From positions 4,250-68,249 of the forward strand of contig JAFGRB010000371.1 of the NCBI GenBank assembly GCA_016935365.1: a stretch of DNA of 64,000 nt, given 5' to 3'. The stretch comes from Deltaproteobacteria bacterium. Lineage in GTDB: Bacteria > Myxococcota > B64-G9. This document shows positions 5,152-41,183 of this stretch, piece by piece (position 1 is the first letter of the stretch; each line of letters begins with the position of its first letter). The notes under the pieces were generated by a model. It had not been told where the DNA came from and ran no database searches. It was given only the letters and a program-made list of their open reading frames with translations. The translations under genes were made by a program, and so were the position numbers.

Positions 5152-5167
5152 TTGAGGATCCGCGCCT

Positions 5168-5866: not shown

Positions 5867-6039
5867 AGCGGATCACCCCTTTCCGATCGACGCTCCGGAC
5901 CGAATGGTCCGAGGCCGGCCATACAAAACACAGCCTCCAGTCGCTGTCAAGGAAAGAGTTCTCCAAGACGATCTCGCACCCAGAACCTCCATGGATGAGC
6001 CGCTACTTTTTCCTTGAAATGGTCCCCTTTCTCTGCTAA

Positions 6040-7580: not shown

Positions 7581-7823
7581 GCATCTCTGTGAATACCCTG
7601 TGTCCAGTCCTGTGGAAAGTCGGTGGAGACCGGGATCTCGCCCTTCTTCCTCACCCAGCTCACAGCTTCTCCACATGCCCTTGTTTTCATCTTCTTCTTT
7701 TGCTACTGTGGCTTATTGCCAATTCTTGCTTTTCACAGCCCTCTGCTATGACTTCTGTTCTTCTAATTAGATCCATATCTAAAACAGATCGAGCTCCAAA
7801 AATCCCCAGAGGAGATTCCTGAC

Positions 7824-8933: not shown

Positions 8934-8939
8934 TCTCAC

Positions 8940-10058: not shown

Positions 10059-10061
10059 GCT

Positions 10062-13008: not shown

Positions 13009-13192
13009 GCTTTCTCATGGCAGACGCCTTGTCAAGATCCGACTGAATGGAAGCGGGCAGTGTCTATGATTATTCTTTTTTATTAGTAAGTTACGTACTA
13101 ATGAGGGCGCTCTTTTTGCTTTACTTGCAGCCCTGCTCATGCTAGGTTTTCCGAGTCGTCGGAAGTCGGATTGTTTCTTTTTTGACAGGTAG

Positions 13193-15649
<2,457 letters not shown>

Positions 15650-15660
15650 TCGGCAGGACG

Positions 15661-16680: not shown

Positions 16681-16690
16681 TGCCCCGGGG

Positions 16691-17989: not shown

Positions 17990-18092
17990 GCGGGGATGAT
18001 AGCCTCGTTACCCAGTGGGGTCAATGGCGGATCTGCGGTTGTAAGATTTTGAAAAATAAAGGCAAAAGGTGTTTCCCGCCCCAGTTTTTTCG

Positions 18093-27490: not shown

Positions 27491-28596
27491 CGATCGTCTG
27501 GATCATCCTCTGGCTTGTCGCCGGGCTCGTGCTGCTGCGGATCCACACAGCCTTCTGGACAGCCATCTACAGGCGTCGTCGTTTCGGCGACGAGGTCCAT
27601 TTTGCCCGCACGGGCGATGGATGGCGGCTGGCGATCCACCGATTTCGACCGCAGAAGCGCCGTTTCCGCGAGGCGGTCCTGCTGTGCCACGGTCTGAGCG
27701 CCAATCGCTACAACTTCGATCTAGACGATGATCGCTCCCTGGCCCGGCACCTGGCCGAGGCGGGCTTCGACGTCTGGGTGCTGGAGCTGCGAGGATCGGG
27801 CCTGAGCGATCGCCCGCGCTGGCGTTCGGGGCGACGCTGGGACTTCGATTTCGACTCCCACCTGCGCTTCGACGCGCCGGCCGCGCTGGACGAGGTGCTT
27901 CAACGCAGCGATTGCCAGCAGCTGTTTTGGGTAGGGCATAGCATGGGCGGGATGCTCGGATACGGCCTGGCGAGCGGAGCCGGGAATCTGGACGCAGCCG
28001 GCTCGCTGCGCGGCCTGGTGACGGTGAGCTCGCCGGCGCGGCTCGACGGCTCCCGGGTCGCGCGGCTGGCTGCGCCTTTTCTGCGGCTGGCCTGCCTCGG
28101 CAGGGCTGTGCCGTTCCGCCCGCTGGCTCGGTTCTTCGCGCCTTTCATGGGGCGAGGGCCGATGACCGCCACGGTGCTCCATCCGGCCAACGTCGACAGA
28201 GGCGATATCCATCGGGCCATGGTCAACCTGGTGGAGAGCAGCTCGTCGGCGCTCATGCGCCAGTTCCTGAGCTGGGTTCGAAGCGGTCGCTTCGACTCCC
28301 GAGACGGTCGGGAAGACTACGCGGCTGGCCTGGTTCGGATCCGCGTCCCGCTGCTGCTGATGGCGGCCGACAGGGACCGGATCGCCCCCCCGAAGAGCGT
28401 CACGGCGGTCTACGAGCAGATCCAGATCGAGGACAAGCAGCTGCGGGTCTTCGGTGTGGACAGCGGCGACGACGTGGACTTCGGTCACGGGGACATCCTC
28501 CTTTCACGGGCAGCCTCAGAGCTCGTCTTCGTCGAGATCCGGCATTGGCTCGAGCAGCGGGCGACCGGAGCGGAAGAGGCGGACGACGATGGATGA
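27487..28596 (+). CDS. alpha/beta-fold hydrolase (GTG start overlapping mpl stop, GTGA)
   Basis: N-terminal TM, HGLSANRYNF (oxyanion region), nucleophile elbow GHSMGG, C-terminal His region. ORF-track start 27331 lies inside mpl. Confidence 0.7.
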   Translation: MTIVWIILWLVAGLVLLRIHTAFWTAIYRRRRFGDEVHFARTGDGWRLAIHRFRPQKRRFREAVLLCHGLSANRYNFDLDDDRSLARHLAEAGFDVWVLELRGSGLSDRPRWRSGRRWDFDFDSHLRFDAPAALDEVLQRSDCQQLFWVGHSMGGMLGYGLASGAGNLDAAGSLRGLVTVSSPARLDGSRVARLAAPFLRLACLGRAVPFRPLARFFAPFMGRGPMTATVLHPANVDRGDIHRAMVNLVESSSSALMRQFLSWVRSGRFDSRDGREDYAAGLVRIRVPLLLMAADRDRIAPPKSVTAVYEQIQIEDKQLRVFGVDSGDDVDFGHGDILLSRAASELVFVEIRHWLEQRATGAEEADDDG

Positions 28597-29719
28597 GGGT
28601 GCCGTGATCCGCCTGCGCCGCGCCCTGCACGCCTGCCCGGAGCTCGCGCACGAGGAGCACCGCACCCAGGAGATCCTCGCCGATGCGCTCGGAGGGCTGG
28701 GGCTCCAGGCAAGGCCGGTGGCTGGAACCGGGCTCCTGGCCGAGATAGGCAGGCCCGAAGGTCGGACGCTGCTGCTGCGGGCCGACATGGACGGCCTGCC
28801 CATCGATGAGCAGACCGGGCTGGGATTCGCCAGCCAGCACCCCGGGCGCATGCACGCCTGTGGCCACGATGCCCACATGGCCATGCTCGTGGGAGTGGCA
28901 GCCAGGCTCGCGGACCGGCCTCCGTCCCGGGGCCGAGTGAGGATCGTGTTCCAGCCGGCCGAGGAGCGTGGAGAAGGAGCCCAGGCGCTGATTCGAGACG
29001 GCGTGCTCGACGCGGTCGACGGCGCGCTGGCCCTGCATGTTTGGAGCCCGCTGCCGCTAGGTCAGGTGGGCGTCGTGACCGGGCCGGTCATGGCCGGCGT
29101 GGACTCTTTTCGCATCCGAATCTGCGGTCGGGCCTCTCACGCCGCCAGGCCAGAGCAGGGGGTCGATCCCATCCTGGCGGCGGCCTCGCTGGTCATGGCC
29201 GCCCAGACCCTGGTATCCAGGCGCATGCGTCCCGGGGACCGGGCGGTGTGCAGCATCTGCCGATTCCAGGCCGGGACGGCATCCAACGTCATCCCGGCCC
29301 AGGCCGAGCTCTCCGGTACTCTGCGTAGCTTCACCTCCGAGGCGCGGGATGGTCTCGTCCGGGGTCTGCAGGACCTGCTCAGGAATATCTCGACGGCCAT
29401 GCGAGTCGAGCCGGAGCTCGAAGCGCTCGAGTCGATTCCACCGACGCGTAACGACGCACAGGCCGCAGAGCGGGCCCGGCGGATCGTGGAGGCCATCGAG
29501 GGGCTGCGCTGCACCGAGGGCTTCGAGCCGTTGATGGTCGGAGAGGACTTCGGGCTGCTGCTCGCACGCGTGCCGGGCGCCATGCTCCTACTGGGGTGCG
29601 GCGATCCGCATGTACAGGCCTTTCCCCATCACCATCCGCGCTTCGACGTGGACGAGCGGTGTCTATCGTACGGGGTCGAGCTTCTCGAGCGCTACGCGCG
29701 GGACTTCCTCGACGCCTGA
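28589..29719 (+). CDS. M20D-family amidohydrolase (hippurate hydrolase/aminoacylase-like)
   Basis: ..LRRALHACPELAHEEHRTQE.., ..HACGHDAHMAM.., metal-binding ..QPAEE... 8-nt start/stop overlap with the alpha/beta hydrolase. Confidence 0.75.
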   Translation: MDEGAVIRLRRALHACPELAHEEHRTQEILADALGGLGLQARPVAGTGLLAEIGRPEGRTLLLRADMDGLPIDEQTGLGFASQHPGRMHACGHDAHMAMLVGVAARLADRPPSRGRVRIVFQPAEERGEGAQALIRDGVLDAVDGALALHVWSPLPLGQVGVVTGPVMAGVDSFRIRICGRASHAARPEQGVDPILAAASLVMAAQTLVSRRMRPGDRAVCSICRFQAGTASNVIPAQAELSGTLRSFTSEARDGLVRGLQDLLRNISTAMRVEPELEALESIPPTRNDAQAAERARRIVEAIEGLRCTEGFEPLMVGEDFGLLLARVPGAMLLLGCGDPHVQAFPHHHPRFDVDERCLSYGVELLERYARDFLDA

Positions 29720-29725: not shown

Positions 29726-32700
29726 TCAGCCCTGCGTGCGAAGCTTATAGCCGCAGTGGGGACAGAACTTGGCGTTCGGCGCGATGCTGCAGCGGCACTC
29801 CGGGCAGGTGGGCCGCTCGAGCTTGTAGCCGCAGTGGGGGCAGAACTTGGCCCCTTCCTTGACCTTGCGCTCGCAGCGGGGGCAGACACCCGGCTTGGCC
29901 GGCAGATGGGGTACGGGAGTCTGGGGCTCGGGCGGGGAGAGCAGCTCGCCTTCCTGCTCGATCCGACCCCGCTCGATCTCGGTCTCGATGGCGAGCTCGA
30001 TGGCGGCGCCGATGGCGCGCCCGGCGGCCCCGAATCCGAGCGCTTGGGCCGTCTGCTGGATGAGGTCTGCTCGCGACATGCCGAACTGGAGTTGCAGCAA
30101 GGTGACCGCGGCCTGCCCCAGCTCCTGGGGACAGATCAAGGAGGCCTCGCGGAGCAGCTCATCGTCGCGCCGGCGCACGGGAGGGACGGTCATGTCCTTG
30201 GGCCACAGGAAGTCGCCCCGCTGCGCGAAGAGCCCGGCCTGGAGCCCTCGGGCCACGGCCTTACGGCCGAACGAGCGGACCTTGGTGTAGACCCGATCGA
30301 TCCCGAATCCTTCTGCAGCCCGCCGGATGGCTTCGTCGACTTGGATGGGGCCCTCGACCTTGACGATGGCAGCCAACAGGCGCGATAGCTCGCCAGCGGA
30401 CTGGCTATGGAAACGCGTCGCCTGCTGCTGGCGCTCGTGCTGGAAGACCACATAGGGCTGGAAGCCGTACTGCTCTAGCCGCGCCTCGGCCTTGTGCAGG
30501 CGAGATGAATCATCCTGGGCGTCCTGCGGCTGGGATTCCTGCTCGGGTGGGGACGCGGCGATCTCGATCAGATCCTTCTCGTTCATGGATGGCATCCGGT
30601 ACCAGTCGGGGCTCCAAATCCGGTGAAGCCGCCAGCCCAGCCGTCGCAGGGCATCCTCCCAGCCCCGCTCCCGATCGCGGGCGGTCTGTGCGCGGGCGTA
30701 GGCCATCCCGTCCGTGGCGATGCCCAGGCGGTAGAGCCCGGTCTGCTCTGTGTCGCGCACGGCCAGGTCCAGGTAGAAGGAATCCCGGTCTCCGAGCCGG
30801 CGCTCGACATCCAGCCCGGCCTTGCGCAGCGAGCGGAAGACGAAGTGCTCGAAATCCGTCCCCTGCGCTTCTTGGCCCTGGGCGTCTCCGTCCTCTTCCA
30901 GCCCGAATGCGTACCGGAGAAAGCCGTGCAGGGCCACCACGCCGCGCGCACCCGAGGCGTCGAGCCGGAAGTCCTCCGGCCGGATGGAGCTGAAGACCAC
31001 GCAGCGCTCACGCGCCCGGGTGATGAGGACGTTGAGTCGCCGCCAGCCGCCGTCCTGGTTCAGGGGGCCGAAGTTCATCGACAGCTTCTCGTCGGCCGCG
31101 GGCTTTCCGTAACCGACGCTGAGCGCGATCACGTCCCGCTCGTCGCCCTGGATGGTCTCCAGGTTCTTGACGAAGAAGGGCTCTTCTCGCTCCTGCGAGA
31201 AGAAGGTCTCCAGGGAGTCGTCCTCGCGCCTCAGGCGTTCGATCTCGTCCAGGACGGCCTGCTGCTGGGCCTGGCTGAAGGTGCCCACCCCGATGCTCTT
31301 TTCGGGGTGGGCGCGAGCCTGCTCGAAGACCCAGCGGCCGATCCGCTCGGCCTGGCTCGGGTTCGTGCCGCGGCCCGGCTGATACCAGTCTGCGGGCTCG
31401 TAGGCCACCTGGAGACCCAGCACGCCCTCGCGCGCCTGACAGGCCGGGAAGACCACCAGCTGCTTCTCATAGAACTCCTTGTTGGAGTAAGAGATCAGCG
31501 AATCGTGGCGCGAGCGGTAGTGCCACCGGAGTCGTGTCCTGGCGAGCACCATGCCACCGCGGTCGAGGATGCTCTCCATGTCCTCGATGCCTGCAGCGCC
31601 CTGCGCGTCTTGCTCGTCGTCCGGATCGTCCTCGCCGCCGGCTGAGCGGAAGAAGCCGGTCGGTGGCAGCTGACGCGTGTCGCCCACCAGGACCAGCTGG
31701 CCCGCGCGGGCGATGGCGCCGAGGGCATCGGCCGGTTCGACCTGGCTCGCCTCGTCGAAGATGACCAGATCGAAGTCTACCTTGCCGGGGGCGAGAAACT
31801 GGGACACCGACAGAGGGCTCATCATCATGCAGGGCTTGAGCCGCTGGACGACCTCGCCCGCATCGGCGAGCAGGCGCCGGATGGATCGCCCGCCGCGCTT
31901 GCGGGCGATCTCGCCCTGCAGAAGCCCGAGCTTGGAGCTGGCCGCGACGCCGAAGGCGGTCACCGGCCGGTTCGCAGACAGCTTGGCATGCAGGCGGGCC
32001 GAGGTCTGGCGGGTCCACTCGCGGTCGAGACGGGCGAACTCCGCCCGGGCGGCCTCGTGGTCCCGAGCGTTGAAGGAGCTGAGCTCCGGCTTCTCGCTCA
32101 GGGCGGTCTCGACGAACAGCCGCAGCGCTTGCTTCTCGAGGGCCGGGCCGTAGAGATCGAACGCCAGCGTCTTGCTGCGGGACTTGTCGGCGAACTGAGA
32201 AAGCGGCCCGCTGCGGCACTCCTGCAGAGCATGCTGGAAGGCGATCCAGTCGTGGAGCTTCTCCTGTCCCGCCTGCAGCTCGCTCAAACGCTCGCTCCAT
32301 TCGGCGAAGCCGGCCTCTTGAGCCGGCAGGCCGGCCGAATCGAGCTGCAGGATCTCCACCAGCCTCTCTCGGGCGGCCTGCCACCGGCCCGTCAGGTCCT
32401 GGAACTGCGCCACGGCCTGCTTGATCGTCTTGCGATCGGCGCCTTCGAAGCAGAGCGCGATCCCCCTGGGGCCGATTCTGCCGGAGGTGAGCAGGCGGCG
32501 AGCGGTGTGCAGCCAGTCGGCCAGCCTCGAGATGGACCGAGGATCGGTGCGACTCCCGCGCCAGTAGACGCCGAAGGCCCGGCGGCCCTCCTCGTCCAGG
32601 GCCTTGATGTCGGCCAGAAGGGTCCTGTACGTGGCCAGCTGCTTCAGGTCCTCGAGGGCCTGGCTCGGCACAGGCTGGTGATCTCGGAGGCGGGCCTGCT

Positions 32701-34612
32701 TGAGCTGGCGGCGATCGGCCCAGTAGCTTGGCCGAAAGAAACGGAACACGCTGTGCCAGGTGCGGCGGCCCCGCTTGTAGATGGACTGCCAGTCTACACT
32801 CTTGGCCTCCTCCGGATCGTAACGTCCGATCAGCCAGCTGCGGAGCGCGTCGAGCTTCTCGAGGCTCTCGACGAGCTCCTTGCGCTCGACCGTGTAGTCG
32901 TCCCAGCAGGTGCTCTCGAGCAGGGACGCCGGCACGCCCACCGAGACCGCCAGGTGCTCGGCGGCCTGGAGCGTTTGGCGTGACTCTTCAGGGCCTTGCG
33001 GCATGGGGGCCTCGAGCTGCTTCGCGAGCCCGGAGGCCGCATTGCGGACCGCGGCCGTCAGCTCGTTCAGCGCCTCCAGCCCTTCCCTGGCGGCCTGGAG
33101 CGTGCCCGGGCCGATCTCTCCCAGGCCGGAGTGCCGCCAGAGATGCTGCTCGACGGGCGAGACCGCCTCGCAGCGGCGGCCGAGGCTTGCGGCCAGCTCG
33201 ATGAGCTCTCGGAGCCTTCCCGCGCTCCAGTCCCGGCTTCCAGGCAGCTCGCAGAAGATGTCCGGGCAGTCCGCCAGGGCGAGCATGCGGCCGATCGCCT
33301 CGTATGGGCTCAGTCCAAGAGGTTCTATCGGCGAGTGCAGGGCACTTGCGTAGCCGTTCAGCTGCCTGCGGAGCTGGCTCAGTCGCTCGCCGGTCTCCTC
33401 GTCCACCTCGGCCTCCAGGCGCCCCTCCTCGAGCACCCGGCCGATCTCCGCCAGCGTGGCCTTGCGGTTTGCCTTGGTGGAGTGGAGCTCGAGGCAGAAG
33501 TCGCCCAGCCCCACCCGGTCCAGCCGGCGCTTGACCACCTGCAGCGCGGCCAGCTTCTGGGAGACGAAGAGCACCCGCATATCGGCGCCCAGGCACTCCG
33601 CGATCATGTTGGCGATGGTCTGCGACTTGCCGGTGCCGGGGGGACCTTCGATGACGAAGCTCTTGCCGTGCTTGGCGGCCGCGATGGCTACCTGCTGGCT
33701 GGCATCGGCGTTCATGACCTGGAAGCAGTCGGCCGGCTCGACGCTGTCGGGTGCGGGCAGCCCGTCGAGCGGCCCGGCGGGCTCGCCGCTGCACAGCGTG
33801 CGCAGCAGGGGATGGGCGCAGAGATCGAGCCCGGCGGAGCTCCAGCGCTCCGGATCTAAATCCAGGTACATCAAGTACTTGGTGAAGGAGAACAAACCGA
33901 GCGCCATCTCGTCGGTCACCCGCCAGCCGTCCTGGTCCGAGATGAGCTCGGAGATGGCCGCGCAGCGGGCGGCCAGATCGAATGCCTCCCAGTCCTCTGG
34001 CTCTTCGGGGAGCCGGATGCCGTGGTCCTTCCCGAGCATGGCGGCCAGGCAGGGGTTGAGCAGCGGATCGTCGGGCAGGGCCTGTAGCTGGAACCGCCGC
34101 CTGGCCGAGCTGCGCGAGAGCTCCGCCGGTACGAGGATCAGCGGGGCCTTGAGAGGGTGATCGGGCCTGTCTGGCCGGCGCCACTCCAGAAAGCCCACCG
34201 CCAGGTGCAGGAGGTTGACGCCCTTCTCCTCCAGCGCGTCGCGGGCCGCTCGCTGGGTTCTGAGCAGGTTGGTCTGGAGGTTCTTGGCGTCCAACGGGGT
34301 CTGGAGGAAGCGGTCGCGGTGATGCTTCGGAAGCTCGTTTTCGCCCAGGGCGGTCTCGATCGGCGGCTGCCCTCTGGCGTCCGCCTCTTCGGCCCGGGCG
34401 CGCTCCGGCCTCTCCTCCGCGGACAGGAAGGCAAAGCTCCGCTCCTGCTGGACCAGCGACTGGAAGACGGCCGATGGGAGCTCGTCGCAGATGGGCACCG
34501 TGGTCCGGCGGGTGGGGCGGAAGTTGAGCAAGCGATTGCGGAGGGTCAGATCCAGCAGCAGCTCTCGCGCCCGGTCCAGCTCCTGCCTCACATCCGTCAT
34601 GGATGACTCCAC
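29726..34612 (-). CDS. 1628-aa multidomain SF1 (Upf1-like) helicase: DUF4011 N-domain, AAA_11/AAA_12 helicase core, REase/DUF559-like nuclease region, DUF3320, C-terminal double zinc ribbon
   Basis: N-term ..LLDLTLRNRLLNFRP.. (DUF4011-like). Walker A GPPGTGKSQTIANMI. Motif II DLVIFDEASQV. Motif VI-like ..LNVLITRARERCVVFSSI... ..GIATDGMAYARAQTARDRERGWEDALRRLGWRLHRIWSPDWY.. (DUF559/Vsr-like endonuclease fold). ..DRVYTKVRSFGRKAVARGLQAG.. (DUF3320-like). Tail CPRCERKVKEGAKFCPHCGYKL..CPECRCSIAPNAKFCPHCGYKL. Confidence 0.85.
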   Translation of the reverse strand: MESSMTDVRQELDRARELLLDLTLRNRLLNFRPTRRTTVPICDELPSAVFQSLVQQERSFAFLSAEERPERARAEEADARGQPPIETALGENELPKHHRDRFLQTPLDAKNLQTNLLRTQRAARDALEEKGVNLLHLAVGFLEWRRPDRPDHPLKAPLILVPAELSRSSARRRFQLQALPDDPLLNPCLAAMLGKDHGIRLPEEPEDWEAFDLAARCAAISELISDQDGWRVTDEMALGLFSFTKYLMYLDLDPERWSSAGLDLCAHPLLRTLCSGEPAGPLDGLPAPDSVEPADCFQVMNADASQQVAIAAAKHGKSFVIEGPPGTGKSQTIANMIAECLGADMRVLFVSQKLAALQVVKRRLDRVGLGDFCLELHSTKANRKATLAEIGRVLEEGRLEAEVDEETGERLSQLRRQLNGYASALHSPIEPLGLSPYEAIGRMLALADCPDIFCELPGSRDWSAGRLRELIELAASLGRRCEAVSPVEQHLWRHSGLGEIGPGTLQAAREGLEALNELTAAVRNAASGLAKQLEAPMPQGPEESRQTLQAAEHLAVSVGVPASLLESTCWDDYTVERKELVESLEKLDALRSWLIGRYDPEEAKSVDWQSIYKRGRRTWHSVFRFFRPSYWADRRQLKQARLRDHQPVPSQALEDLKQLATYRTLLADIKALDEEGRRAFGVYWRGSRTDPRSISRLADWLHTARRLLTSGRIGPRGIALCFEGADRKTIKQAVAQFQDLTGRWQAARERLVEILQLDSAGLPAQEAGFAEWSERLSELQAGQEKLHDWIAFQHALQECRSGPLSQFADKSRSKTLAFDLYGPALEKQALRLFVETALSEKPELSSFNARDHEAARAEFARLDREWTRQTSARLHAKLSANRPVTAFGVAASSKLGLLQGEIARKRGGRSIRRLLADAGEVVQRLKPCMMMSPLSVSQFLAPGKVDFDLVIFDEASQVEPADALGAIARAGQLVLVGDTRQLPPTGFFRSAGGEDDPDDEQDAQGAAGIEDMESILDRGGMVLARTRLRWHYRSRHDSLISYSNKEFYEKQLVVFPACQAREGVLGLQVAYEPADWYQPGRGTNPSQAERIGRWVFEQARAHPEKSIGVGTFSQAQQQAVLDEIERLRREDDSLETFFSQEREEPFFVKNLETIQGDERDVIALSVGYGKPAADEKLSMNFGPLNQDGGWRRLNVLITRARERCVVFSSIRPEDFRLDASGARGVVALHGFLRYAFGLEEDGDAQGQEAQGTDFEHFVFRSLRKAGLDVERRLGDRDSFYLDLAVRDTEQTGLYRLGIATDGMAYARAQTARDRERGWEDALRRLGWRLHRIWSPDWYRMPSMNEKDLIEIAASPPEQESQPQDAQDDSSRLHKAEARLEQYGFQPYVVFQHERQQQATRFHSQSAGELSRLLAAIVKVEGPIQVDEAIRRAAEGFGIDRVYTKVRSFGRKAVARGLQAGLFAQRGDFLWPKDMTVPPVRRRDDELLREASLICPQELGQAAVTLLQLQFGMSRADLIQQTAQALGFGAAGRAIGAAIELAIETEIERGRIEQEGELLSPPEPQTPVPHLPAKPGVCPRCERKVKEGAKFCPHCGYKLERPTCPECRCSIAPNAKFCPHCGYKLRTQG

Positions 34613-34731
34613 TCGACCTGTCGTCTCGTGATCTGGATTGTGGCACGGGGCGGGGGCGAGGTGAATGAAAAAAACAGACAGCTATGCTAGACTGCGCCCA
34701 GGATTCGAGGGGGCTGGAACAGGAGAAGGAC

Positions 34732-37197
34732 ATGAAGACGCTTCGCGGAATCTGGGTGGTCTTTCTGGCCTGCACCCTGCTGGCCTTTATCTCATGCGCC
34801 CCGGGCGACCTGCCGGGCAAGCCGGTCCACGTATCGCAGCCCATCGTGGGCGGCTGGCAGACCAGCGACTGGCCTGCTGTCGGGGCACTGGTGCTGGACT
34901 ACGGGAGCTACTGGCAGCAGTTCTGCTCCGGGACCCTGGTCGACAGCGAGTGGGTGCTGACCGCCGGCCACTGCCTGGACCCCGATACCACCGGGATCGA
35001 GGACTATCAGACGAGCTTCTACATCGGGCCCGACGCCCGGAGCGAGTCCGGCGGGGTGGCTTTCCAGGCCGAGTCCTTCCACCTCCACGGCGACTGGGAG
35101 AACAACGACATCGGCCTGATCCACCTGAGCAGCCCGGTGCCCTCTGGCACCGCGACCCCCATCCCCTACAACGACTATAACCTCCAGAACTACGTCCACA
35201 ACCAGATCACCTGGGTGGGCTACGGGGTCAACAATGGCTACAACCAGACCGGCAGCGGCATCAAGCGCTACGGAACCGGATACATCGGCGAGCTCTACTA
35301 CTACCAGTTCACCTACCCGGTCGACGGCGGCCAGATGCCCTGCTCCGGGGACTCGGGCGGCGCCACCCTGATGACCATCGCCTCGGTCGAGCGCGTGGTG
35401 GGCGTCATCTCCGCGGGCGACCAGTACTGCGTCCAGAGCGGTGTGGACACCCGGGTGGACGCCTACAGCAGCTGGATCCACGACGAGATAGAGGGCGGCG
35501 GGACCACCGAATGCGACATCACCGGCGGGGACTGCGGCAACCAGGCCTGCTACCCGGTCGACGTGGACGAGCTGGCCTGCGTGCCCTCGGACGGCATTCG
35601 CATCGGCCAGGCCTGCGACGAGGAGGGCCAGGAATCCTCGGTGGCCTGCGCGGACGGCGGCATATGCATCGACATCCCGGAGGCGAGCGGTGGCTACGGC
35701 GAGGTCTGCTACCAGTTCTGCGTGGACGACTCGGTCTGCGAGCAGGACGAGATGTGCACCTTGCCCATCTTCGAGGACATCGACGACATCGGCATCTGCC
35801 TGCCCGAGCCCGAGACCTGCCGCATCAGCGGCGGCGACTGCGATGCGGGCTCGGCCTGCTACCCGACCACCAGCGGCGAGTTCTACTGCTTCCCGAGCGC
35901 CGGCGCGGGTCTCGGCGCTGCCTGCAACCCGAGCCAGGTCGATCCGCTTCCCTGCGGCGACGGCCTGGTCTGTCTGGGCTCGGGCACGTCGGGCAACTGC
36001 TATGACTTCTGCCAGCGCGATGCAGACTGCCCTTCGCAGTACGAGTGCAGCATCTTTCAGGGCGAGGAGGACCTCGGCTACTGCAGCTGCGTCGACGACG
36101 ACAACGACAACTGGTGCGCCTACGACGACTGCGACGACAACGACCGGAACACCCACCCGGGCGCGACCGAGCTGTGCGGAGACAACAAGGACAACGACTG
36201 CGATAACTTGACCGACGAGGATTGCACATGCACGGACCTGGACGGGGACGGCTACTGCGCGGATGTGGACTGCGACGATCGCGATCGCAACACCCACCCG
36301 GGGGCGACCGAGATCTGCGGTGACGGCAGGGACAACGACTGCGACGGCCAGACCGATGAGAGCTGCGGGTGCACGGATCAAGACGGGGACGGCTACTGCG
36401 CTGAAGAGGACTGCGACGACGGCGATCGGAACACCCACCCGGGGGCGACGGAGCTCTGCGGCGACAACAAGGACAATGACTGCGACGGGAGCACCGACGA
36501 GGGCTGCGGCTGCACGGATCTGGACGGAGACGGCTACTGCGCCGGGGTGGACTGCGACGACAGGAACAAGAACAACCACCCGGGTGCGACCGAGCGCTGC
36601 GGGGACGGGATGGACAACGACTGCGATGGTCAGACCGACGAGAACTGCGGCACCTGCTACGACCTGGATGGAGACGGCTATTGCCAGGGAGATGACTGCA
36701 ACGACATCGACGCCAGCGTCAACCCGGGTGCGACCGAGCGCTGCGGGGACGGGAAGGACAACGACTGCGACGGTAGCACCGACGAGGGCTGCGGCACCTG
36801 CACGGACAGCGACGGGGACGGGTACTGTCTGCCCGCCGATTGCAACGATGGCAACGCGAGCGTCCACCCTGACGGCCAGGAGATCTGCGGAGACGGCGTG
36901 GACAACGACTGCAGCGGCCAGACGGACGAGGGCTGCGCCGAGTGCGTCTCGGACGGCGACTGCGACGACGGCAACCCCTGCACCCGGGACACGTGCAGCG
37001 GTGGGATCTGCGCGCACGAGGACGAGCCGGACGGTATGATCTGCGGGGAGGGCATGGCCTGCCAGATCGGCGAGTGCTTCCCCTGGACCGATCCGGAGAG
37101 CTCCGGCTGTCAGGTGGCGGCCGGCCGCGGCGCGCCGGCGACGCTTTGGCTCGCGCTGGTCGGCGTGCTGTGGGGGATTCGCCGGCGAAGGGCCTGA
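34732..37197 (+). CDS. secreted trypsin-like (S1) serine protease with ~7 MopE-type Cys/Asp-rich repeats and MYXO-CTERM-like tail (821 aa)
   Basis: Signal peptide MKTLRGIWVVFLACTLLAFISCAP. IVGGWQ..LTAGHC (His), GDSGG (Ser). Repeats DGDGYCA.VDCDD.DRNTHPGATE.CGDG.DNDCDG.TDE.C. C-term ..SSGCQVAAGRGAPATLWLALVGVLWGIRRRRA (Cys + TM + Arg cluster). AGGAGA Shine-Dalgarno 5 nt upstream of ATG 34732. Confidence 0.8.
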   Translation: MKTLRGIWVVFLACTLLAFISCAPGDLPGKPVHVSQPIVGGWQTSDWPAVGALVLDYGSYWQQFCSGTLVDSEWVLTAGHCLDPDTTGIEDYQTSFYIGPDARSESGGVAFQAESFHLHGDWENNDIGLIHLSSPVPSGTATPIPYNDYNLQNYVHNQITWVGYGVNNGYNQTGSGIKRYGTGYIGELYYYQFTYPVDGGQMPCSGDSGGATLMTIASVERVVGVISAGDQYCVQSGVDTRVDAYSSWIHDEIEGGGTTECDITGGDCGNQACYPVDVDELACVPSDGIRIGQACDEEGQESSVACADGGICIDIPEASGGYGEVCYQFCVDDSVCEQDEMCTLPIFEDIDDIGICLPEPETCRISGGDCDAGSACYPTTSGEFYCFPSAGAGLGAACNPSQVDPLPCGDGLVCLGSGTSGNCYDFCQRDADCPSQYECSIFQGEEDLGYCSCVDDDNDNWCAYDDCDDNDRNTHPGATELCGDNKDNDCDNLTDEDCTCTDLDGDGYCADVDCDDRDRNTHPGATEICGDGRDNDCDGQTDESCGCTDQDGDGYCAEEDCDDGDRNTHPGATELCGDNKDNDCDGSTDEGCGCTDLDGDGYCAGVDCDDRNKNNHPGATERCGDGMDNDCDGQTDENCGTCYDLDGDGYCQGDDCNDIDASVNPGATERCGDGKDNDCDGSTDEGCGTCTDSDGDGYCLPADCNDGNASVHPDGQEICGDGVDNDCSGQTDEGCAECVSDGDCDDGNPCTRDTCSGGICAHEDEPDGMICGEGMACQIGECFPWTDPESSGCQVAAGRGAPATLWLALVGVLWGIRRRRA

Positions 37198-37217
37198 GGG
37201 ACAGAGGAGACAGACCG

Positions 37218-39296
37218 ATGATCCGTCGAACAGCAGGCCTGGCCGCACTGCTCCTTCTGGCGAGCTGCGGAAAGGAGACGGAGGGCCTGGCCGAGAGGGC
37301 GAGCCCGGTCATCGCCGGGATCGAGACCTCGGCCTGGCCCTCGATCGGGGCGCTGGTCCTGGACGACTATGGTTACTTCGAGAACTTCTGCTCGGGCACC
37401 CTGATCGCCTCGCGCTGGGTGTTGACCGCCGCGCATTGCCTCGATGGCACTTACCCGGCCAGCCAGGTCAGCTTCTACACCGGGCCCGACGTCCACAATC
37501 CGTCCAGCCAGTACACGTTCAGCGCGCAGCGCTACTACATCCACTCGCGCTGGGACACCGATCTCATGATCAACGACATCGGGCTGGTCTATCTGGCGGA
37601 GAGCGCCTCGCCCACGCCCATGACCTACAACCGCAACAACATCGCCGGGAGCACCGGCGATCCCATCACCTGGGTGGGCTACGGCGTCAACTGGGTCAAC
37701 CCCAACAACCCGAACGACCAGCGCGGCAGCGGGCTCAAGCGCTACGGGACAAGTTACATGGGCGCGGTGGCGCTAACCTGGGTGGACTACGAGGCCTCGG
37801 GCGGGCAGATGACCTGCTTCGGGGACTCGGGCGGCGCGACCCTGATGGACGTCGGCGGCCAGGAGCGGCTGGTGGGAATCAACTCGGGCGTCTCCGACAG
37901 CTACTGCACCGGCGTGGGCGTGAGCACCCGGGTGGACGCCTACTCCGACTGGATCCAGGACATCATGCAGAACGGCTCCAGCCCGACCAACTGCGACATC
38001 ACCGGCGGCACGTGTCGCAACAACGCCTGCTATCCACTCCAGGACGGGGTCTACCAGTGCCTGCCGACCCAGGGCATCCCGCAGGGCCAGCCCTGCGAGC
38101 CCTCGATCGTGGAGTCGCTGGCCTGTGAGGATGGCAGCCTGTGCCTGGACCTCGATCCCGCCGAGGGAGGCAGCGGACAGATCTGCTACCCGCTCTGTCT
38201 TGTGGACCAGCACTGCGGGGCGGGCGAGCGTTGCCTGACGCCCGTGCTCCACGGCCTGAGCGTGGGCGCCTGCGTCGATCGGCTCACCACCTGCGAGATC
38301 ACGGGTGGAGACTGCGGGACGGGCCAGGCCTGCCATCCGGTGGATGAGCACGAGGCCTACTGCTATGCGAGCAATGGGGCCGGCGAGGGTACGAGCTGCA
38401 ACCCGAACGTGTCGCCCGGTGAAGCGCCGCTGCCCTGCGCCGACGGGCTGGGCTGTATTCGGATCTCCGGTGCGAACGGCCGCTGTGCCGCCTACTGCGA
38501 GACAGCGGCCGACTGCCCGGACGGATTCGACTGCATCATGCTGTCGTCGTGGCACGGCTTCTGCAATTGCACCGATCGAGATGAAGACGGCTACTGCGAA
38601 GGTGCCGACTGCGACGATGGGGATGAGCATGTCCATCCGGGTGCCGAGGAGATCTGCGGGGACGGTGTGGACAACGACTGCGACCAGCTCACCGACGAGG
38701 GCTGCACCTGCACCGATCTCGATGGGGACGGCTACTGCGCCGATGAGGACTGCGACGATCGCAACCGCCAGAACCACCCCGGTGCCACGGAGCGATGCGG
38801 GGACGGGGTGGACAACGACTGCGACCAGCTCACCGACGAGGGCTGCTCGAGCTGCACGGATCGGGACGGGGACGGCTACTGCGCCGAGAGCGGCGACTGC
38901 GATGATCGCAACTCGACCGTGAGCCCGGCCGCGGATGAGCGCTGCTTCGACGGCATCGACAACGACTGCGACGATCTCACCGACGAGGACTGCGGCTCGG
39001 GCGATTGCGCCCAGGACAGCGACTGCGACGATGACAATCCTTGCAGCCGGGACTGGTGCGAGGCGAGCTTCTGTTTCCATGAGGACGAGCCGGACGGCAT
39101 GCTGTGCGGGGAGGGCATGGCCTGTCAGATCGGCGAGTGCTTCCCCTGGGGAGATCCGCAGGCCGGAGGCTGTCAGGTGGCTTCCAGACGGGGCCGGGAC
39201 GGGGCTTCGGGCTCGCTCGTGCTCCTTCCGCTCGCTGTGACCTGCATCCTTCGCAGGCGCAGGAAGTTACTTGCCTTGCCGGACCGCCGGGGCTAG
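37218..39296 (+). CDS. paralogous secreted S1 serine protease with MopE-type repeats and MYXO-CTERM-like tail (692 aa)
   Basis: Lipoprotein-type signal MIRRTAGLAALLLLASCGK. LTAAHC / GDSGG triad. Repeats ..DEDGYCEGADCDDGDEHVHPGAEEICGDGVDNDCDQLTDEGC... C-term ..GGCQVASRRGRDGASGSLVLLPLAVTCILRRRRK. Domain order matches the preceding gene. Confidence 0.8.
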   Translation: MIRRTAGLAALLLLASCGKETEGLAERASPVIAGIETSAWPSIGALVLDDYGYFENFCSGTLIASRWVLTAAHCLDGTYPASQVSFYTGPDVHNPSSQYTFSAQRYYIHSRWDTDLMINDIGLVYLAESASPTPMTYNRNNIAGSTGDPITWVGYGVNWVNPNNPNDQRGSGLKRYGTSYMGAVALTWVDYEASGGQMTCFGDSGGATLMDVGGQERLVGINSGVSDSYCTGVGVSTRVDAYSDWIQDIMQNGSSPTNCDITGGTCRNNACYPLQDGVYQCLPTQGIPQGQPCEPSIVESLACEDGSLCLDLDPAEGGSGQICYPLCLVDQHCGAGERCLTPVLHGLSVGACVDRLTTCEITGGDCGTGQACHPVDEHEAYCYASNGAGEGTSCNPNVSPGEAPLPCADGLGCIRISGANGRCAAYCETAADCPDGFDCIMLSSWHGFCNCTDRDEDGYCEGADCDDGDEHVHPGAEEICGDGVDNDCDQLTDEGCTCTDLDGDGYCADEDCDDRNRQNHPGATERCGDGVDNDCDQLTDEGCSSCTDRDGDGYCAESGDCDDRNSTVSPAADERCFDGIDNDCDDLTDEDCGSGDCAQDSDCDDDNPCSRDWCEASFCFHEDEPDGMLCGEGMACQIGECFPWGDPQAGGCQVASRRGRDGASGSLVLLPLAVTCILRRRRKLLALPDRRG

Positions 39297-39297
39297 C

Positions 39298-39606
39298 ATG
39301 GCCGCCATGCTAAAGTGGATCACGCCTCTCATCTGCTCGCTGGCCTGCCTGCTCTCCTGGGGCTGCGGCAGCGCCTGCCGAGATCTGGCCAACAAGGTCT
39401 GCGATTGCCAGCCCACCCGGGCCAAGAAGGAGCGCTGCGAGATCGCCGTCAGCGTAGCCGACGACAACCTGGACGCGTCGGACGCCGAGGAGGAGGCCTG
39501 CCAGCAGATCCTCGACTCCGGCTCCTGCACATGTGATGCGGTCCTGACGGGAGACCTGGCCGCCTGCGGCCTGGCCCACAGCACCCTGGACCTCTCCGAA
39601 GACTGA
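39298..39606 (+). CDS. small Cys-rich putative lipoprotein (102 aa, 8 Cys in mature part)
   Basis: ATG 1 nt after the protease stop (TAGcATG). Signal MAAMLKWITPLICSLACLLSWGC. Mature part CGSACRDLANKVCDCQ..CEIAV..ACQQILDSGSCTCDAV..LAACG. Confidence 0.45.
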   Translation: MAAMLKWITPLICSLACLLSWGCGSACRDLANKVCDCQPTRAKKERCEIAVSVADDNLDASDAEEEACQQILDSGSCTCDAVLTGDLAACGLAHSTLDLSED

Positions 39607-39773
39607 TGGACTCGTAAAAAGTCCATCAACGGCCGGCGCTGACAGGCGCCGGCCGCCAAGAGGGGGGTGGAACCACTTGAATTCACTTCAAGTGGCGGGG
39701 GAGGGAAGATCCCTCCCCCGCCGAGCAGAAGTCGCGAAGCGACTTTTTGCGAGGTCAACAAGACTAGCCCTAA

Positions 39774-39805
39774 AACAAGCGCGGCTTCCAAACCGCGTTT
39801 GTTTG
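39774..39805. terminator. candidate bidirectional intrinsic terminator between convergent genes
   Basis: Extended imperfect palindrome cccTAAAACAAGCGCGG-cttccaaa-CCGCGTTTGTTTgaggg (12-17 bp stem), T-runs on both strands at the stem base. Lies between the + gene ending 39606 and the - gene ending 39855. Confidence 0.4.
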
Positions 39806-39854
39806 AGGGCTGGCCGCCCGAAGGGCGGTCGTTTTAGGGTGAAGCTGCTGGAAT

Positions 39855-41183
39855 TCAGCGCCCGCTTCTCGGGACGAAGGTGGCCTGGTTCGCCTTCCAC
39901 CACGCTCGCCAGGCGGGCTGCATCTTGCGGCCCTCGGCCAGGCTGGGGCGCTTCCAGTCGTAGCCGTCTCCCCAGGAGCGGAAGAAGGACTGGCCGGTCC
40001 AGACGTGGAGGCGCATCTCGGCCTGGGCGCGCACCTGGTGATCCGAATGGGTCAGGGCATCGATGCAGACCGGGATGGCCTTCGGGATGTGGCCCTCGGC
40101 CAGATAGTACATGGCCGAAAAGACTTCCCAGCGCGGCTTTGCAGCCAGGATCTCGAAGGCGGCCCGGCTCGGACGCATGGCGAGCCCGGTCCAGACCTCC
40201 GGGTGATCCGCGGACCCCCAGGACGCGAGCAGGGGCAGGAAGTCGTCCTGGCGGGCGAAGACGATCGCCTCGCGGGCCGCGGTCATGCGGGAGCTGGGCC
40301 AATCGTGGCGGGCCCGGCGGGCGAGCCGTTTCTTCCAGTCGGACTGCATGCGGGCGCGCTCGGCAGGGCTGCCGTGGCGGATCGTGAGATCCAGCCTGGC
40401 GTAGTCGGTAAGTCCCTGGAAAGCCCAGCGCTCGACGCGCACGCGGAGCGACTGGGGCACGTGGTTCAAGACCGGCGAGTCGGGGCCCTGCTCGTGGATC
40501 ACGCGCACGCGGACCGGCTTGTCATCGCGCCGGTCGAAGGGATGGCCGTGGCGGTCGACGCGGATGCGCGCACGCTCGGACTCGGGCAGGGCCGCCACCG
40601 CGGCCCGGACGGCAGGGGCCTGGCGAGGCAGCTCGAATCCGCTGTGGGCGTGGAAGCAGTGCAGCTCGTAGCGCCCCGGCTGCGCGATGGCCGCCCAGCG
40701 CTGAAGCGCGAGCCAGTACGAGCGGGGCTTACCGGGCCGCACGTCGTAGCTGCTGGACAGACCGCCCATGTAGACGAGGGACGCGGGGTCTCCGTAGGGA
40801 TCCAACACCGCCTTGCCCTCGGCATCCAGCAGCACGAAGAGGAAGTTGTCATCCCGGCCGCGGGCGCGGTAGTTGCCCCCGATGTGCTCTGTCCACTTGC
40901 CCGCCTGCACCTCGATCCGGAACTCCACCGGGATGGGTTCGCCCAGGAGGAAATCGTGGCGCTCGAGCCGGAAGGAGCGCGCAAGCCCTTGGGGGATGTC
41001 CGGGGCGGGGGACTCGACGGCCTCCGCTTCGATCGCCCGGTTGAATCGAAGCGCAGAGCGGGTAGCGCCAGCGGGTGGCAGCTCGAGCCAGTACGGCTTG
41101 ATCCGGATCTCGATCTCTAGGCCTTCGGCCCAGGCGAGGCACGGGATGGCGATCAGCCCTAACGCAAGCGCGGATCGAAGCAT
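39855..41183 (-). CDS. secreted hypothetical protein (442 aa) with C-terminal HEAT/PBS-like repeats
   Basis: Signal peptide MLRSALALGLIAIPCLAWAEG. C-terminal ..AIPVCIDALTHSDHQVRAQAEMRL.. resembles HEAT-type repeats. No catalytic motif recognised. Confidence 0.55.
   Translation of the reverse strand: MLRSALALGLIAIPCLAWAEGLEIEIRIKPYWLELPPAGATRSALRFNRAIEAEAVESPAPDIPQGLARSFRLERHDFLLGEPIPVEFRIEVQAGKWTEHIGGNYRARGRDDNFLFVLLDAEGKAVLDPYGDPASLVYMGGLSSSYDVRPGKPRSYWLALQRWAAIAQPGRYELHCFHAHSGFELPRQAPAVRAAVAALPESERARIRVDRHGHPFDRRDDKPVRVRVIHEQGPDSPVLNHVPQSLRVRVERWAFQGLTDYARLDLTIRHGSPAERARMQSDWKKRLARRARHDWPSSRMTAAREAIVFARQDDFLPLLASWGSADHPEVWTGLAMRPSRAAFEILAAKPRWEVFSAMYYLAEGHIPKAIPVCIDALTHSDHQVRAQAEMRLHVWTGQSFFRSWGDGYDWKRPSLAEGRKMQPAWRAWWKANQATFVPRSGR

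What the first reader, a model, noticed from the sequence alone, without database searches (positions are those of the whole stretch)
29726..34612. 1628-aa SF1 helicase-nuclease fusion (DUF4011 / Upf1-like core / REase-DUF559-like / DUF3320 / double zinc ribbon): candidate nucleic-acid defence or repair enzyme
A single protein combines an Upf1-like 5'-3' helicase core with an endonuclease-fold segment (..GWEDALRRLGWRLHRIWSPDWY..) and a terminal pair of CxxC-x10-CxxC zinc ribbons. Helicase-nuclease fusions of this type resemble Nhi-like bacterial immunity enzymes. It is located between housekeeping peptidoglycan genes and secreted proteases without obvious mobile-element markers, so a chromosomal repair or R-loop role is equally possible.
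Basis: partly seen in the sequence, partly recalled or inferred. Interest (0 to 1): 0.55.

Follow-up and report, generated by a model that had tools for sequence, protein, structure and literature searches.

The report
Hhe-like helicase with crippled nuclease site
This giant single gene belongs to a catalogued family of anti-phage-type helicase-nuclease proteins (Hhe / ProA / PDC-S37), but its nuclease-like domain lacks the glutamate that Hhe needs to work, so it is a real but fairly ordinary family member with an unusual, probably non-cutting, variant domain.

Summary
These are DUF4011, a split Upf1-like SF1B helicase core, a Vsr-type MTES_1575 nuclease fold, DUF3320 and two CxxC-x10-CxxC zinc ribbons.

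The protein matches PADLOC candidate family PDC-S37 over its full length (1477 bits). It scores below the NCBIfam cut-offs for anti-phage ProA and Hhe. No model named Nhi matched.

It is not a core gene. It lies in a variable segment between an M20 peptidase gene and pmbA/tldD, about 24 kb from oriC. Four related metagenomic genomes carry it there. About a dozen equally related genomes with the same flanking synteny lack it, and one shows a clean empty site.

All helicase motifs are intact. In the nuclease fold, the Glu of the family motif GIECDG is Ala (A1299). This is the same residue as Hhe E1731, and E1731A abolished Hhe defence. The partner Arg and the His are also lost. The domain is nevertheless under strong purifying selection (dN/dS 0.04).

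Close relatives outside this clade are coupled to a retron-type reverse transcriptase, which supports a defence origin.

Verdict: a new variant of a known kind, most likely a defence-type translocase whose nuclease fold no longer cuts in the usual way. Interest is moderate to low.

The parts
29726..34612 (-). Whole ORF, 1628 aa from GTG (probable start ATG at 34600, 1624 aa). PDC-S37-type protein with DUF4011, SF1B helicase, Vsr-fold domain, winged helices and zinc ribbons.
34034..34558 (-). DUF4011 N-terminal domain (residues 19-193; the modelled domain spans about 1-290). Confident alpha/beta model with no structural match in the PDB.
   Evidence: Pfam 5e-41. AlphaFold2 pLDDT 90.6, pTM 0.86. 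Best Foldseek PDB hit E = 0.3, TM <= 0.15.
33353..33715 (-). First part of helicase domain 1A. Walker A GPPGTGKS is at residues 323-330 (nt 33623-33646).
31913..33352 (-). Insert of about 480 aa that splits the helicase core between Walker A and motif II. It is family-typical and is covered by the PDC-S37 profile in one stretch.
30908..31795 (-). Helicase motifs II-VI: DEASQ 953-957, GDTRQLPPT 977-985, TIQGDERD 1153-1160 and LNVLITRAR 1193-1201. All are intact.
   Evidence: The window differs at only 4 of 144 family-conserved helicase positions, and none of them lies in a motif.
30563..30853 (-). Vsr / EDxHD-type nuclease-fold domain (MTES_1575, residues 1254-1350). D1282, D1301 and D1313 are kept. 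The family Glu is Ala (A1299, nt 30716-30718), the His is Ala (A1306) and the partner Arg is Trp (W1318).
   Evidence: Pfam 1e-20. Profile against PDB: RAP domain 2e-4, 3HRL 0.01, Vsr 0.2. Foldseek: 3R3P TM 0.77, 3HRL TM 0.70. Residue analysis.
29933..30511 (-). Linker helices plus a tandem winged-helix array (the DUF3320 Pfam hit covers residues 1400-1447).
   Evidence: Pfam 6e-10. The model has pLDDT above 90 here, and Foldseek finds AlkX/YcaQ, SelB WH2-4 and the cullin WHB domain. DUF3320 was described as a wHTH in PMC3710099.
29750..29884 (-). C-terminal double zinc ribbon, 2 x CxxC-x10-CxxC (residues 1577-1620). Among the 120 best homologs only P0001-P0003 and P0039 carry a zinc-ribbon tail.
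29726..41183 (.). Variable chromosomal segment holding the helicase gene, two trypsin/MopE genes and a 442-aa ORF. It lies between the conserved M20 peptidase gene (28454-29719) and pmbA (41199-42515). The whole segment is missing from the empty site in relative L093.

Best explanation
The gene encodes a solitary, single-protein member of the DUF4011 helicase / Vsr-fold nuclease superfamily. That superfamily contains the anti-phage proteins Hhe and ProA and the PADLOC candidate PDC-S37, and PDC-S37 is the type to which this protein belongs.

Shown here:
- The Upf1-like SF1B ATPase/translocase core is intact.
- The N-terminal DUF4011 domain has no solved structural relative.
- A Vsr / EDxHD-fold domain, a tandem winged-helix array and two zinc ribbons follow the helicase.
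- The gene is accessory. It sits in a variable segment, and equally related genomes lack it.
- All domains are under purifying selection.

Inferred:
- The protein is a nucleic-acid surveillance or defence enzyme that translocates 5'-3' on single-stranded nucleic acid produced by invading or aberrant replicons. Hhe appears to respond to phage DNA-metabolism functions in a comparable way.
- In this clade the nuclease centre has lost the Glu that Hhe requires, together with its partner Arg and the motif His. I therefore predict that the domain no longer cleaves by the canonical mechanism.
- It more likely serves as a nucleic-acid-binding or clamping module. The output would be helicase-driven, by displacing proteins, by unwinding intermediates or by recruiting a partner through the zinc ribbons.

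Rough probabilities for the components: family assignment about 0.95, defence-type role about 0.55, canonical nuclease activity lost about 0.55.
For: - Family: PADLOC PDC-S37 scores 1476.6 bits, with residues 6-1559 matching profile positions 4-1545 of 1550. Hhe scores 600 bits. NCBIfam ProA scores 1321.8 bits and Hhe 865 bits.
- Helicase: all motifs are present, and only 4 of 144 conserved helicase positions differ.
- Nuclease fold.
- Glu loss: E is found in 115 of 120 homologs, and Ala only in the window clade P0001-P0003. A direct alignment puts A1299 opposite the Glu of Hhe GIECDG (residue 1727, or 1731 counted from the ATG four codons upstream). E1731A abolished Hhe defence (bioRxiv 10.1101/2022.06.16.496414).
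- Still functional: dN/dS between P0002 and P0003 is 0.114 overall, 0.038 in the nuclease fold and 0.047 in the helicase C-terminal half.
- Accessory status: same locus in L001, L005 and L006, but no helicase hit in any of 80 Mpl-anchored loci. About 12 of these have the same synteny and at least 7 kb of downstream sequence. L093 is an empty site.
- Defence origin: 6 of 7 examined close relatives are adjacent to or fused with a retron-type RT.
- Hhe itself is accessory. It occurs in 302 of 5426 E. coli genomes, in the two loci examined is flanked by IS elements, and is countered and triggered by phage genes.
- Distribution is patchy across more than 12 phyla.
Against: - No phage, plasmid, integrase, tRNA or defence gene lies next to it. 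None of the 7 neighbour proteins scanned (3 from this variable segment, the flanking M20 peptidase, and 3 from L001/L006) matches a PADLOC defence model; the only hit was a weak generic TPR model on one L006 protein.
- GC content equals that of the surroundings.
- In 36 distant homolog loci the neighbours are mostly housekeeping, with only about 5% defence-model hits.
- Some branches of the family behave as species-conserved genes. These include the P. aeruginosa DUF4011 gene that flanks hotspot cDHS1 (PMC10250203) and a homolog on more than 100 Ralstonia megaplasmid records.
- Against loss of nuclease activity: the domain is the most constrained part of the protein. D1282, D1301 and D1313 are kept. 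E. coli Vsr itself has Phe at the Glu position (my alignment). All three clade members gained an acidic residue at position 1319 that might compensate.
- The E1731A result comes from one preprint, in which Hhe gave only weak protection.
Confidence: 0.5

Rival explanations
1. It is a fully active Hhe-type helicase-nuclease. The active site is rewired but still cuts DNA, using D1282, D1301 and D1313, possibly with the new acidic residue at 1319. The protein then defends by degrading invading DNA, or the host chromosome in an abortive infection.
For: - The nuclease fold has the lowest dN/dS in the protein, 0.038.
- Three conserved Asp residues are kept.
- Position 1319 is Glu or Asp in all three clade members, against Gln in 85 of 120 homologs.
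- 22 of 79 distant homologs also lack the Glu yet remain full-length.
- Vsr itself works without an acidic residue at that position (alignment by eye, general knowledge).
Against: - The same Glu-to-Ala change abolished Hhe defence.
- The equivalent of Vsr H69 is also lost. H69 is essential in Vsr, which I state from memory.
- The near-invariant partner Arg is replaced by Trp or Phe.
- RAP domains, the best PDB sequence match, are to my knowledge (from memory) usually non-catalytic RNA binders; in the alignment they lack the family's ExDG motif.
Confidence: 0.25
2. It is a domesticated housekeeping helicase. A former defence gene was fixed in this lineage, its nuclease was inactivated and it gained zinc ribbons. 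It now works in repair, R-loop removal or transcription-replication conflict resolution.
For: - It occupies the same locus in four diverged genomes. Protein identity of about 49% is like that of its least conserved neighbours.
- GC content is fully ameliorated.
- There are no mobile-element markers.
- The nuclease centre is degenerate while the helicase is intact.
- Upf1-like relatives such as Sen1 and IGHMBP2 act on RNA and R-loops (general knowledge).
- Some family branches are species-conserved.
Against: - It is absent from about 12 equally related genomes with the same flanking synteny, including a clean empty site. It is therefore dispensable and variably present.
- It sits in a segment whose other content also varies: trypsin/MopE genes, CHAT-TPR genes and unknown ORFs.
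- The clade has long branches.
- No LexA-box-like CTGT-N8-ACAG site was seen by eye in the 72-nt upstream spacer.
Confidence: 0.17
3. It is an Nhi-like nuclease-helicase immunity enzyme.
For: The only support is the general theme of an SF1 helicase plus a nuclease in one polypeptide.
Against: No model named Nhi is among the PADLOC hits at E <= 0.1, whereas PDC-S37, Hhe and Mokosh helicases do hit. The domain order and the nuclease type (a C-terminal Vsr fold) are those of Hhe.
Confidence: 0.02
4. It is a decaying relic, a pseudogene in the making.
For: Conserved nuclease residues are lost, and the clade has long branches.
Against: The 4.9-kb reading frame is uninterrupted. dN/dS is 0.11 overall and below 0.05 in the helicase and the nuclease fold.
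Confidence: 0.03

Closest known systems
PADLOC phage-defence candidate PDC-S37 (PDLC05009)
   Same: End-to-end profile match in a single stretch: 1476.6 bits, residues 6-1559 against profile positions 4-1545 of 1550. It is likewise a single-gene unit with no recurrent partner.
   Different: The profile ends before the C-terminal double zinc ribbon. PDC-S37 is a computational candidate, and I found no paper that mentions it.
Hhe (single-gene anti-phage system of E. coli / Klebsiella; NCBIfam NF042953)
   Same: Shared order of DUF4011, split SF1 helicase and C-terminal Vsr-type domain. Identity is 40% over the helicase C-terminal half plus the nuclease, and 36% over a 357-column N-terminal alignment.
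   Different: - It scores 865 bits against a cut-off of 2000.
- The middle region differs; Hhe is 1911 aa long.
- In one search the BLASTP alignments to the window's tandem winged-helix/DUF3320 region and to its zinc ribbons are missing, so Hhe was not seen to match them; Hhe's own domains were not scanned.
- The Hhe catalytic Glu (E1731) is Ala here.
- In the two Hhe loci examined (a conjugative Klebsiella plasmid and an E. coli chromosome) the gene is flanked by IS elements. This gene lies in an ameliorated chromosomal segment.
ProA (NCBIfam NF058533, 'anti-phage protein ProA')
   Same: Scores 1321.8 bits over profile positions 353-1901 of 1903, which cover DUF4011 through DUF3320.
   Different: It is below the 1500-bit cut-off and lacks the first roughly 350 profile positions, which form a ProA-specific N-terminal region. 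I could not trace the primary source of the name in the held literature.
Vsr / EDxHD-type endonucleases (E. coli Vsr, I-Bth0305I 3R3P, DUF559 3HRL) and RAP domains
   Same: The fold is the same. Foldseek gives TM 0.77 to 3R3P and 0.70 to 3HRL, and the profile hits RAP, 3HRL and Vsr. The Asp residues equivalent to Vsr D51 and D97 are kept.
   Different: It lacks the Glu and the His of the family signature. In that respect it resembles the non-catalytic RAP-type use of this fold.
Upf1-like SF1B helicases (IGHMBP2, Sen1, DNA2)
   Same: The motor core has all motifs. The 5'-3' polarity is inferred from this family.
   Different: The core is split by an insert of about 480 aa (about 620 aa between Walker A and motif II) and is flanked by DUF4011, the Vsr fold, the winged helices and the zinc ribbons.
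Retron-type RT systems
   Same: The closest relatives outside the window clade, at 45-50% identity, are fused or adjacent to a retron-type RT with a conserved structured non-coding region. The chassis therefore appears to serve as a retron-like effector.
   Different: The window has no RT, no PLD gene and only 72 nt upstream of the gene.

Membership tests
PDC-S37 (PADLOC candidate) | Full-length match to the family HMM | tested here: met
   1476.6 bits, E = 0, residues 6-1559 against profile positions 4-1545 of 1550
PDC-S37 (PADLOC candidate) | Single-gene system with no obligatory partner gene | tested here: met
   No recurrent neighbour family among 139 flanking genes of 36 homolog loci. The window neighbours are unrelated.
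PDC-S37 (PADLOC candidate) | Anti-phage activity | not testable with these tools
   No experiment is available, and no paper mentions PDC-S37.
Hhe | NCBIfam equivalog score of at least 2000 bits | tested here: not met
   865 bits
Hhe | Architecture of DUF4011, SF1 helicase and C-terminal Vsr-type nuclease domain | tested here: met
Hhe | Catalytic Glu of the Vsr-type domain (E1731), required for defence | tested here: not met
   Window A1299 aligns with that Glu. E1731A abolishes Hhe defence.
ProA (NF058533) | NCBIfam equivalog score of at least 1500 bits | tested here: not met
   1321.8 bits
ProA (NF058533) | N-terminal region of about 350 aa (profile positions 1-352) | tested here: not met
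   The match starts at profile position 353, and the window protein starts directly with DUF4011.
Upf1-like SF1B helicase | Motifs I, II, III, V and VI intact | tested here: met
   GPPGTGKS, DEASQ, GDTRQLPPT, TIQGDERD and LNVLITRAR are all present. IGHMBP2, Sen1 and DNA2 hits.
Upf1-like SF1B helicase | ATP-dependent 5'-3' unwinding | not testable with these tools
   Inferred from family membership only.
Vsr / EDxHD nuclease | Vsr-like fold | tested here: met
   Pfam MTES_1575 1e-20. Foldseek 3R3P TM 0.77 and 3HRL TM 0.70. PDB profile hits.
Vsr / EDxHD nuclease | Complete catalytic signature (Asp, Glu-x-Asp, His, Asp) | tested here: not met
   D1282, D1301 and D1313 are present. Glu is replaced by A1299 and His by A1306.
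Nhi | Match to a family model outside the generic helicase core | tested here: not met
   No Nhi-named model is among the 13 PADLOC hits at E <= 0.1. I did not check whether the library holds an Nhi model.
Retron-type RT system | Adjacent or fused reverse transcriptase plus non-coding RNA | tested here: not met
   No RT hit in the window (best E = 0.84) and only a 72-nt upstream spacer. The feature is met in relatives L002, L007, L090 and L171-L173.
   No helicase hit in any of 80 Mpl-anchored loci. L093 is an empty site.

The most novel reading that the evidence does not exclude
This clade records a defence-to-host exaptation. An Hhe/PDC-S37-type helicase-nuclease was captured at a chromosomal hotspot near oriC. 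It lost nuclease catalysis (E1299A, R1318W, H1306A) but kept the fold under strong constraint, and it gained a double zinc ribbon. It now acts as a non-cutting, helicase-driven factor. Possible roles are removing R-loops or stalled complexes, or defending by displacement rather than cleavage.
Probability: 0.15. Interest if true: 0.6.

Novelty: new variant of a known kind. Interest (0 to 1): 0.38.

Why it matters
Hhe-type single-protein helicase-nucleases are validated anti-phage genes, but their mechanism is unknown.

This clade is a natural variant. The motor is intact, yet the residue Hhe needs for defence is already Ala, and the fold is still under strong selection. That makes it a ready-made separation-of-function case. 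It could show whether these proteins can act without cutting, and what the Vsr-type fold contributes besides catalysis.

Glu-less variants make up about a quarter of distant homologs (22 of 79), so the question applies to a large part of a family with thousands of members.

The by-product may be of wider interest. Close relatives are coupled to a retron-type RT, a conserved structured non-coding RNA and a small PLD-like protein. I found no description of such an RT-plus-Hhe-like effector combination in the held literature.

Tried and rejected
- **Literature on names.** The name ProA could not be traced to a paper, and PDC-S37 appears in none. Gao et al. 2020, the original Hhe paper, is not held. 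The statement that Hhe was first validated there rests on the citing preprint and on memory.
- **Nhi.** No profile support.
- **Defence island around homologs.** Of 139 immediate neighbours in 36 GTDB loci, only about 6-8 hit PADLOC models. The pVip hits are MoaA-type radical SAM enzymes. No partner gene recurs. This is not informative either way for a single-gene system. I did not run a distal-gene control.
- **Window neighbours.** None of the neighbours from the window segment or its syntenic counterparts matches a PADLOC defence model.
- **M20 adjacency.** An M20 peptidase gene also follows the helicase in L172 and L173, but it has no detectable similarity to the window M20. I treat this as coincidence.
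- **DUF4011 fold.** A confident model has no PDB analogue, so it gives no functional lead.
- **Rfam.** The region upstream of the RT in L002 gave only a chance-level hit.
- **Phage origin.** The family is essentially absent from 50,697 phage records.
- **Compensating acidic residue at 1319.** I could not test whether it reaches the active site, because model coordinates are not returned.
Full report
**Observation.** An ATG four codons downstream, at 34600, has GGAG 7 nt upstream. It gives the 1624-aa protein that NCBI annotates as 'MAG: DUF3320 domain-containing protein [Deltaproteobacteria bacterium]'.
- DUF4011, residues 19-193, 5e-41
- the two halves of an SF1 helicase (AAA_11 / AAA_19 / AAA_12)
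- the Vsr-type REase MTES_1575, residues 1254-1350, 1e-20
- DUF3320, residues 1400-1447
- a double zinc ribbon, residues 1577-1621

The helicase is Upf1-like, with hits to IGHMBP2, Sen1 and DNA2. All motor motifs are present.

**Family.** The protein matches PADLOC's phage-defence candidate PDC-S37 from end to end (1476.6 bits). It also matches the anti-phage protein Hhe (600 bits in PADLOC, 865 bits in NCBIfam) and NCBIfam 'anti-phage protein ProA' (1321.8 bits). It stays below both curated cut-offs (2000 and 1500) and lacks the first roughly 350 positions of the ProA profile. No model named Nhi matched. The family is large and widely scattered:
- At least 6931 proteins score E <= 1e-10 in a capped search.
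- Species representatives come from more than 12 phyla plus one archaeon, all at most 39% identical to the window protein.
- The family is essentially absent from phage records.
- On plasmids it occurs mostly on chromids, plus true Hhe on conjugative Klebsiella plasmids.

**Fold checks.** A model of residues 1240-1628 (pLDDT 86.7) shows three parts. The first is a Vsr / EDxHD-type nuclease fold (I-Bth0305I 3R3P TM 0.77, DUF559 3HRL TM 0.70, RAP domain). The second is a tandem winged-helix array (AlkX/YcaQ, SelB, cullin WHB). The third is a set of beta-hairpin zinc ribbons. A sequence profile of the nuclease region also finds RAP, 3HRL and Vsr in the PDB. The DUF4011 domain gives a confident model (pLDDT 90.6, pTM 0.86) with no structural match in the PDB.

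**The nuclease centre is not canonical.** In 120 homologs the motif is G-I-E-C-D-G-x-x-Y-H. The Glu is present in 115 of them and is Ala only in the window protein and its two nearest relatives, P0002 and P0003. I fetched PGAP-annotated Hhe from a Klebsiella plasmid. This Hhe is at least 99% identical to E. coli Hhe over the 3' 1.7 kb compared, which includes the nuclease domain. Its motif Glu is residue 1727, or 1731 when counted from an in-frame ATG four codons upstream. BLASTP aligns window A1299 with that Glu. A preprint reports that E1731A abolishes Hhe's anti-phage activity (10.1101/2022.06.16.496414). The window protein therefore naturally carries the inactivating change.

The motif His is also Ala (A1306). 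It is equivalent to Vsr H69, which I recall from memory to be essential. The near-invariant Arg at position 1318 is Trp here and Phe in P0002 and P0003. Of 219 positions that are at least 93% conserved in the other 117 homologs, the window differs at 10. Four of these fall among 144 helicase positions and none lies in a motif. Four fall among 24 nuclease positions.

Even so, the domain is the most constrained part of the protein. dN/dS between P0002 and P0003 is 0.038 in the nuclease fold and 0.114 overall. D1282, D1301 and D1313 are retained, and all three clade members gained an acidic residue at 1319. Loss of the Glu also recurs elsewhere. Of 79 GTDB homologs, 22 lack it, usually together with the Arg and the His. 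I conclude that canonical cleavage is probably lost (about 0.55) but that the fold still has a function.

**Core or accessory?** The window carries the replication-origin region. The gene order is mnmE-yidC, then a low-GC gap where GC skew changes sign, then dnaA-dnaN-recF, gyrB and gyrA. The helicase gene lies about 24 kb away on the opposite strand to dnaA, gyrB and gyrA. It is convergent with an M20 peptidase gene (6-bp gap) and divergent from a trypsin/MopE gene (72-nt spacer).

The same arrangement occurs in two metagenomic relatives, L001 and L005. It runs TldD-PmbA, two trypsin/MopE genes, the helicase, M20, a hydrolase and Mpl. A third relative, L006, shares the M20 side. The helicase is 49% identical between the window and L001, like the least conserved neighbours (M20 47%, hydrolase 49%, against AtpB 79%). 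The syntenic copies form one clade.

I then fetched 80 loci anchored on Mpl. About a dozen share the gyrA..Mpl-hydrolase synteny, have Mpl 58-65% identical to the window (L001 is 66%), and extend at least 7 kb downstream. None has any helicase hit. L093 is a clean empty site where M20 is followed by a small ORF and then pmbA-tldD.

The gene therefore sits in a variable segment whose other content also differs between genomes. That content includes trypsin/MopE genes, a pair of CHAT-TPR genes, and unknown ORFs. The gene is old and ameliorated but dispensable. This rules out a universally conserved housekeeping gene for this clade. Other branches of the family are species-conserved, such as the P. 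aeruginosa DUF4011 gene flanking hotspot cDHS1 and a Ralstonia megaplasmid homolog.

**Evidence on function from relatives.**
- Hhe is accessory. It occurs in 302 of 5426 E. coli genomes, and in the two loci examined it is flanked by IS elements.
- Hhe is toxic together with a Bas63 phage gene, appears to respond to T7 class II DNA-metabolism genes, and is countered by phage genes.
- The closest relatives of the window clade, at 45-50% identity, are coupled to a retron-type reverse transcriptase in 6 of 7 cases examined. The RT is adjacent in L002, L007, L171, L172 and L173, and fused in P0028 / L090.
- Upstream of these RT genes lies a conserved structured non-coding region of about 190 nt, and often a small PLD-like gene.
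- This use as a retron-like effector supports a defence origin for the chassis. The window itself has no RT or PLD gene.
- Immediate neighbours of 36 distant homologs are mostly housekeeping, with no recurrent partner. That fits a self-contained single-gene unit but does not prove defence.

**Most likely mechanism.**
- *Shown:* the SF1B motor is intact. The nucleic-acid-binding modules are the Vsr fold, the winged helices and the zinc ribbons. The gene is accessory. All domains are under purifying selection.
- *Inferred:* the protein loads on single-stranded nucleic acid generated by foreign or aberrant replication and translocates 5'-3'. Because the catalytic Glu, Arg and His are gone, it acts by helicase-driven disruption or by recruiting a partner rather than by Vsr-type cleavage.
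- *Rivals:* a rewired but active nuclease (0.25), a domesticated housekeeping helicase (0.17), a decaying relic (0.03) and Nhi-like (0.02).

**Verdict.** The protein is a new variant of a known kind, namely PDC-S37-type and related to Hhe and ProA. It has a non-canonical nuclease centre and an added double zinc ribbon. Interest is 0.38. The RT-coupled sister clade, which lies outside the window, is the more novel lead.

Noticed in passing
L002:6453-14794; L007:1-5683; L171:869-9803; L172:754-7306; L173:3297-9794; L090:6465-13727: Six of seven examined close relatives of the window protein (45-50% identity) are coupled to a retron-type reverse transcriptase. The RT is adjacent upstream in five cases and fused in P0028, which also has a second RT gene nearby. 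A PLDc_2 gene of about 176 aa (70-79% identical between loci) lies divergently upstream in four loci. I found no description of an RT plus Hhe-like helicase-nuclease combination in the held literature.
   Followed up: partly
L172:1291-1575; L173:3825-4105; L002:8700-9010; L171:2780-3072 (alignment A7): A conserved non-coding region of about 190 nt lies between a promoter-like TTGACG-N17-TAnnAT and the RT start. An 8-bp closing stem (CTGCCTTG / CAAGGCAG) encloses four hairpins, two with compensatory changes, followed by a 12-bp GC hairpin. This resembles a retron msr/msd RNA. No Rfam family matches. Only four sequences were compared.
   Followed up: partly
window 1-18000 (gap about 5150-6215): The window contains the chromosomal replication-origin region. 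The gene order is mnmE and yidC, then a low-GC gap (54%) where GC skew changes sign, then dnaA, dnaN, recF, gyrB and gyrA. The helicase gene is about 24 kb from it, on the strand opposite to dnaA, gyrB and gyrA.
   Followed up: partly
window 33743-34612 (residues 1-290): DUF4011 gives a confident AlphaFold2 model (pLDDT 90.6, pTM 0.86) with no structural match in the PDB (best Foldseek E = 0.3, TM <= 0.15). The fold appears to have no solved representative.
   Followed up: yes
L010-L089 (GTDB homolog loci): Of 79 distant homologs, 22 lack the Glu of the GIECDG motif, most having Leu instead. This usually comes with Arg1318 changed to Gln and no His. Many of these are from rumen or gut Firmicutes MAGs and Bacteroidota. 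Glu and Arg seem to co-vary, so a Glu-less nuclease fold is a recurrent state in the family.
   Followed up: partly
window 34684-41183; L006:5608-11988; L001:13436-14941: The junction next to the M20 peptidase gene holds different cargo in different relatives. The window, L001 and L005 have two tandem secreted trypsin/MopE-repeat paralogs. L006 has two large TPR-CHAT proteins. L001 has a 501-aa unknown ORF. L093 has almost nothing. It looks like a small chromosomal hotspot.
   Followed up: partly
L008:1209-4695; L009:1-1854: Bona fide hhe is preceded by DUF262-domain genes in both loci examined: two on the Klebsiella plasmid, and at least one at the edge of the fetched E. coli chromosomal stretch. 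In E. coli TW10598 hhe is interrupted by an IS100 insertion. The DUF262 genes may be a linked partner or a neighbouring defence gene.
   Followed up: no
window 34600-34612: The longest ORF starts at GTG 34612. The ATG at 34600 has a GGAG 7 nt upstream and matches the NCBI annotation (1624 aa), so it is probably the real start.
   Followed up: yes
L172:7361-8743; L173:9844-11223: In two RT-linked relatives an M20 peptidase gene also follows the helicase gene, as in the window clade. That M20 shows no detectable similarity to the window M20, so this is probably coincidence.
   Followed up: yes
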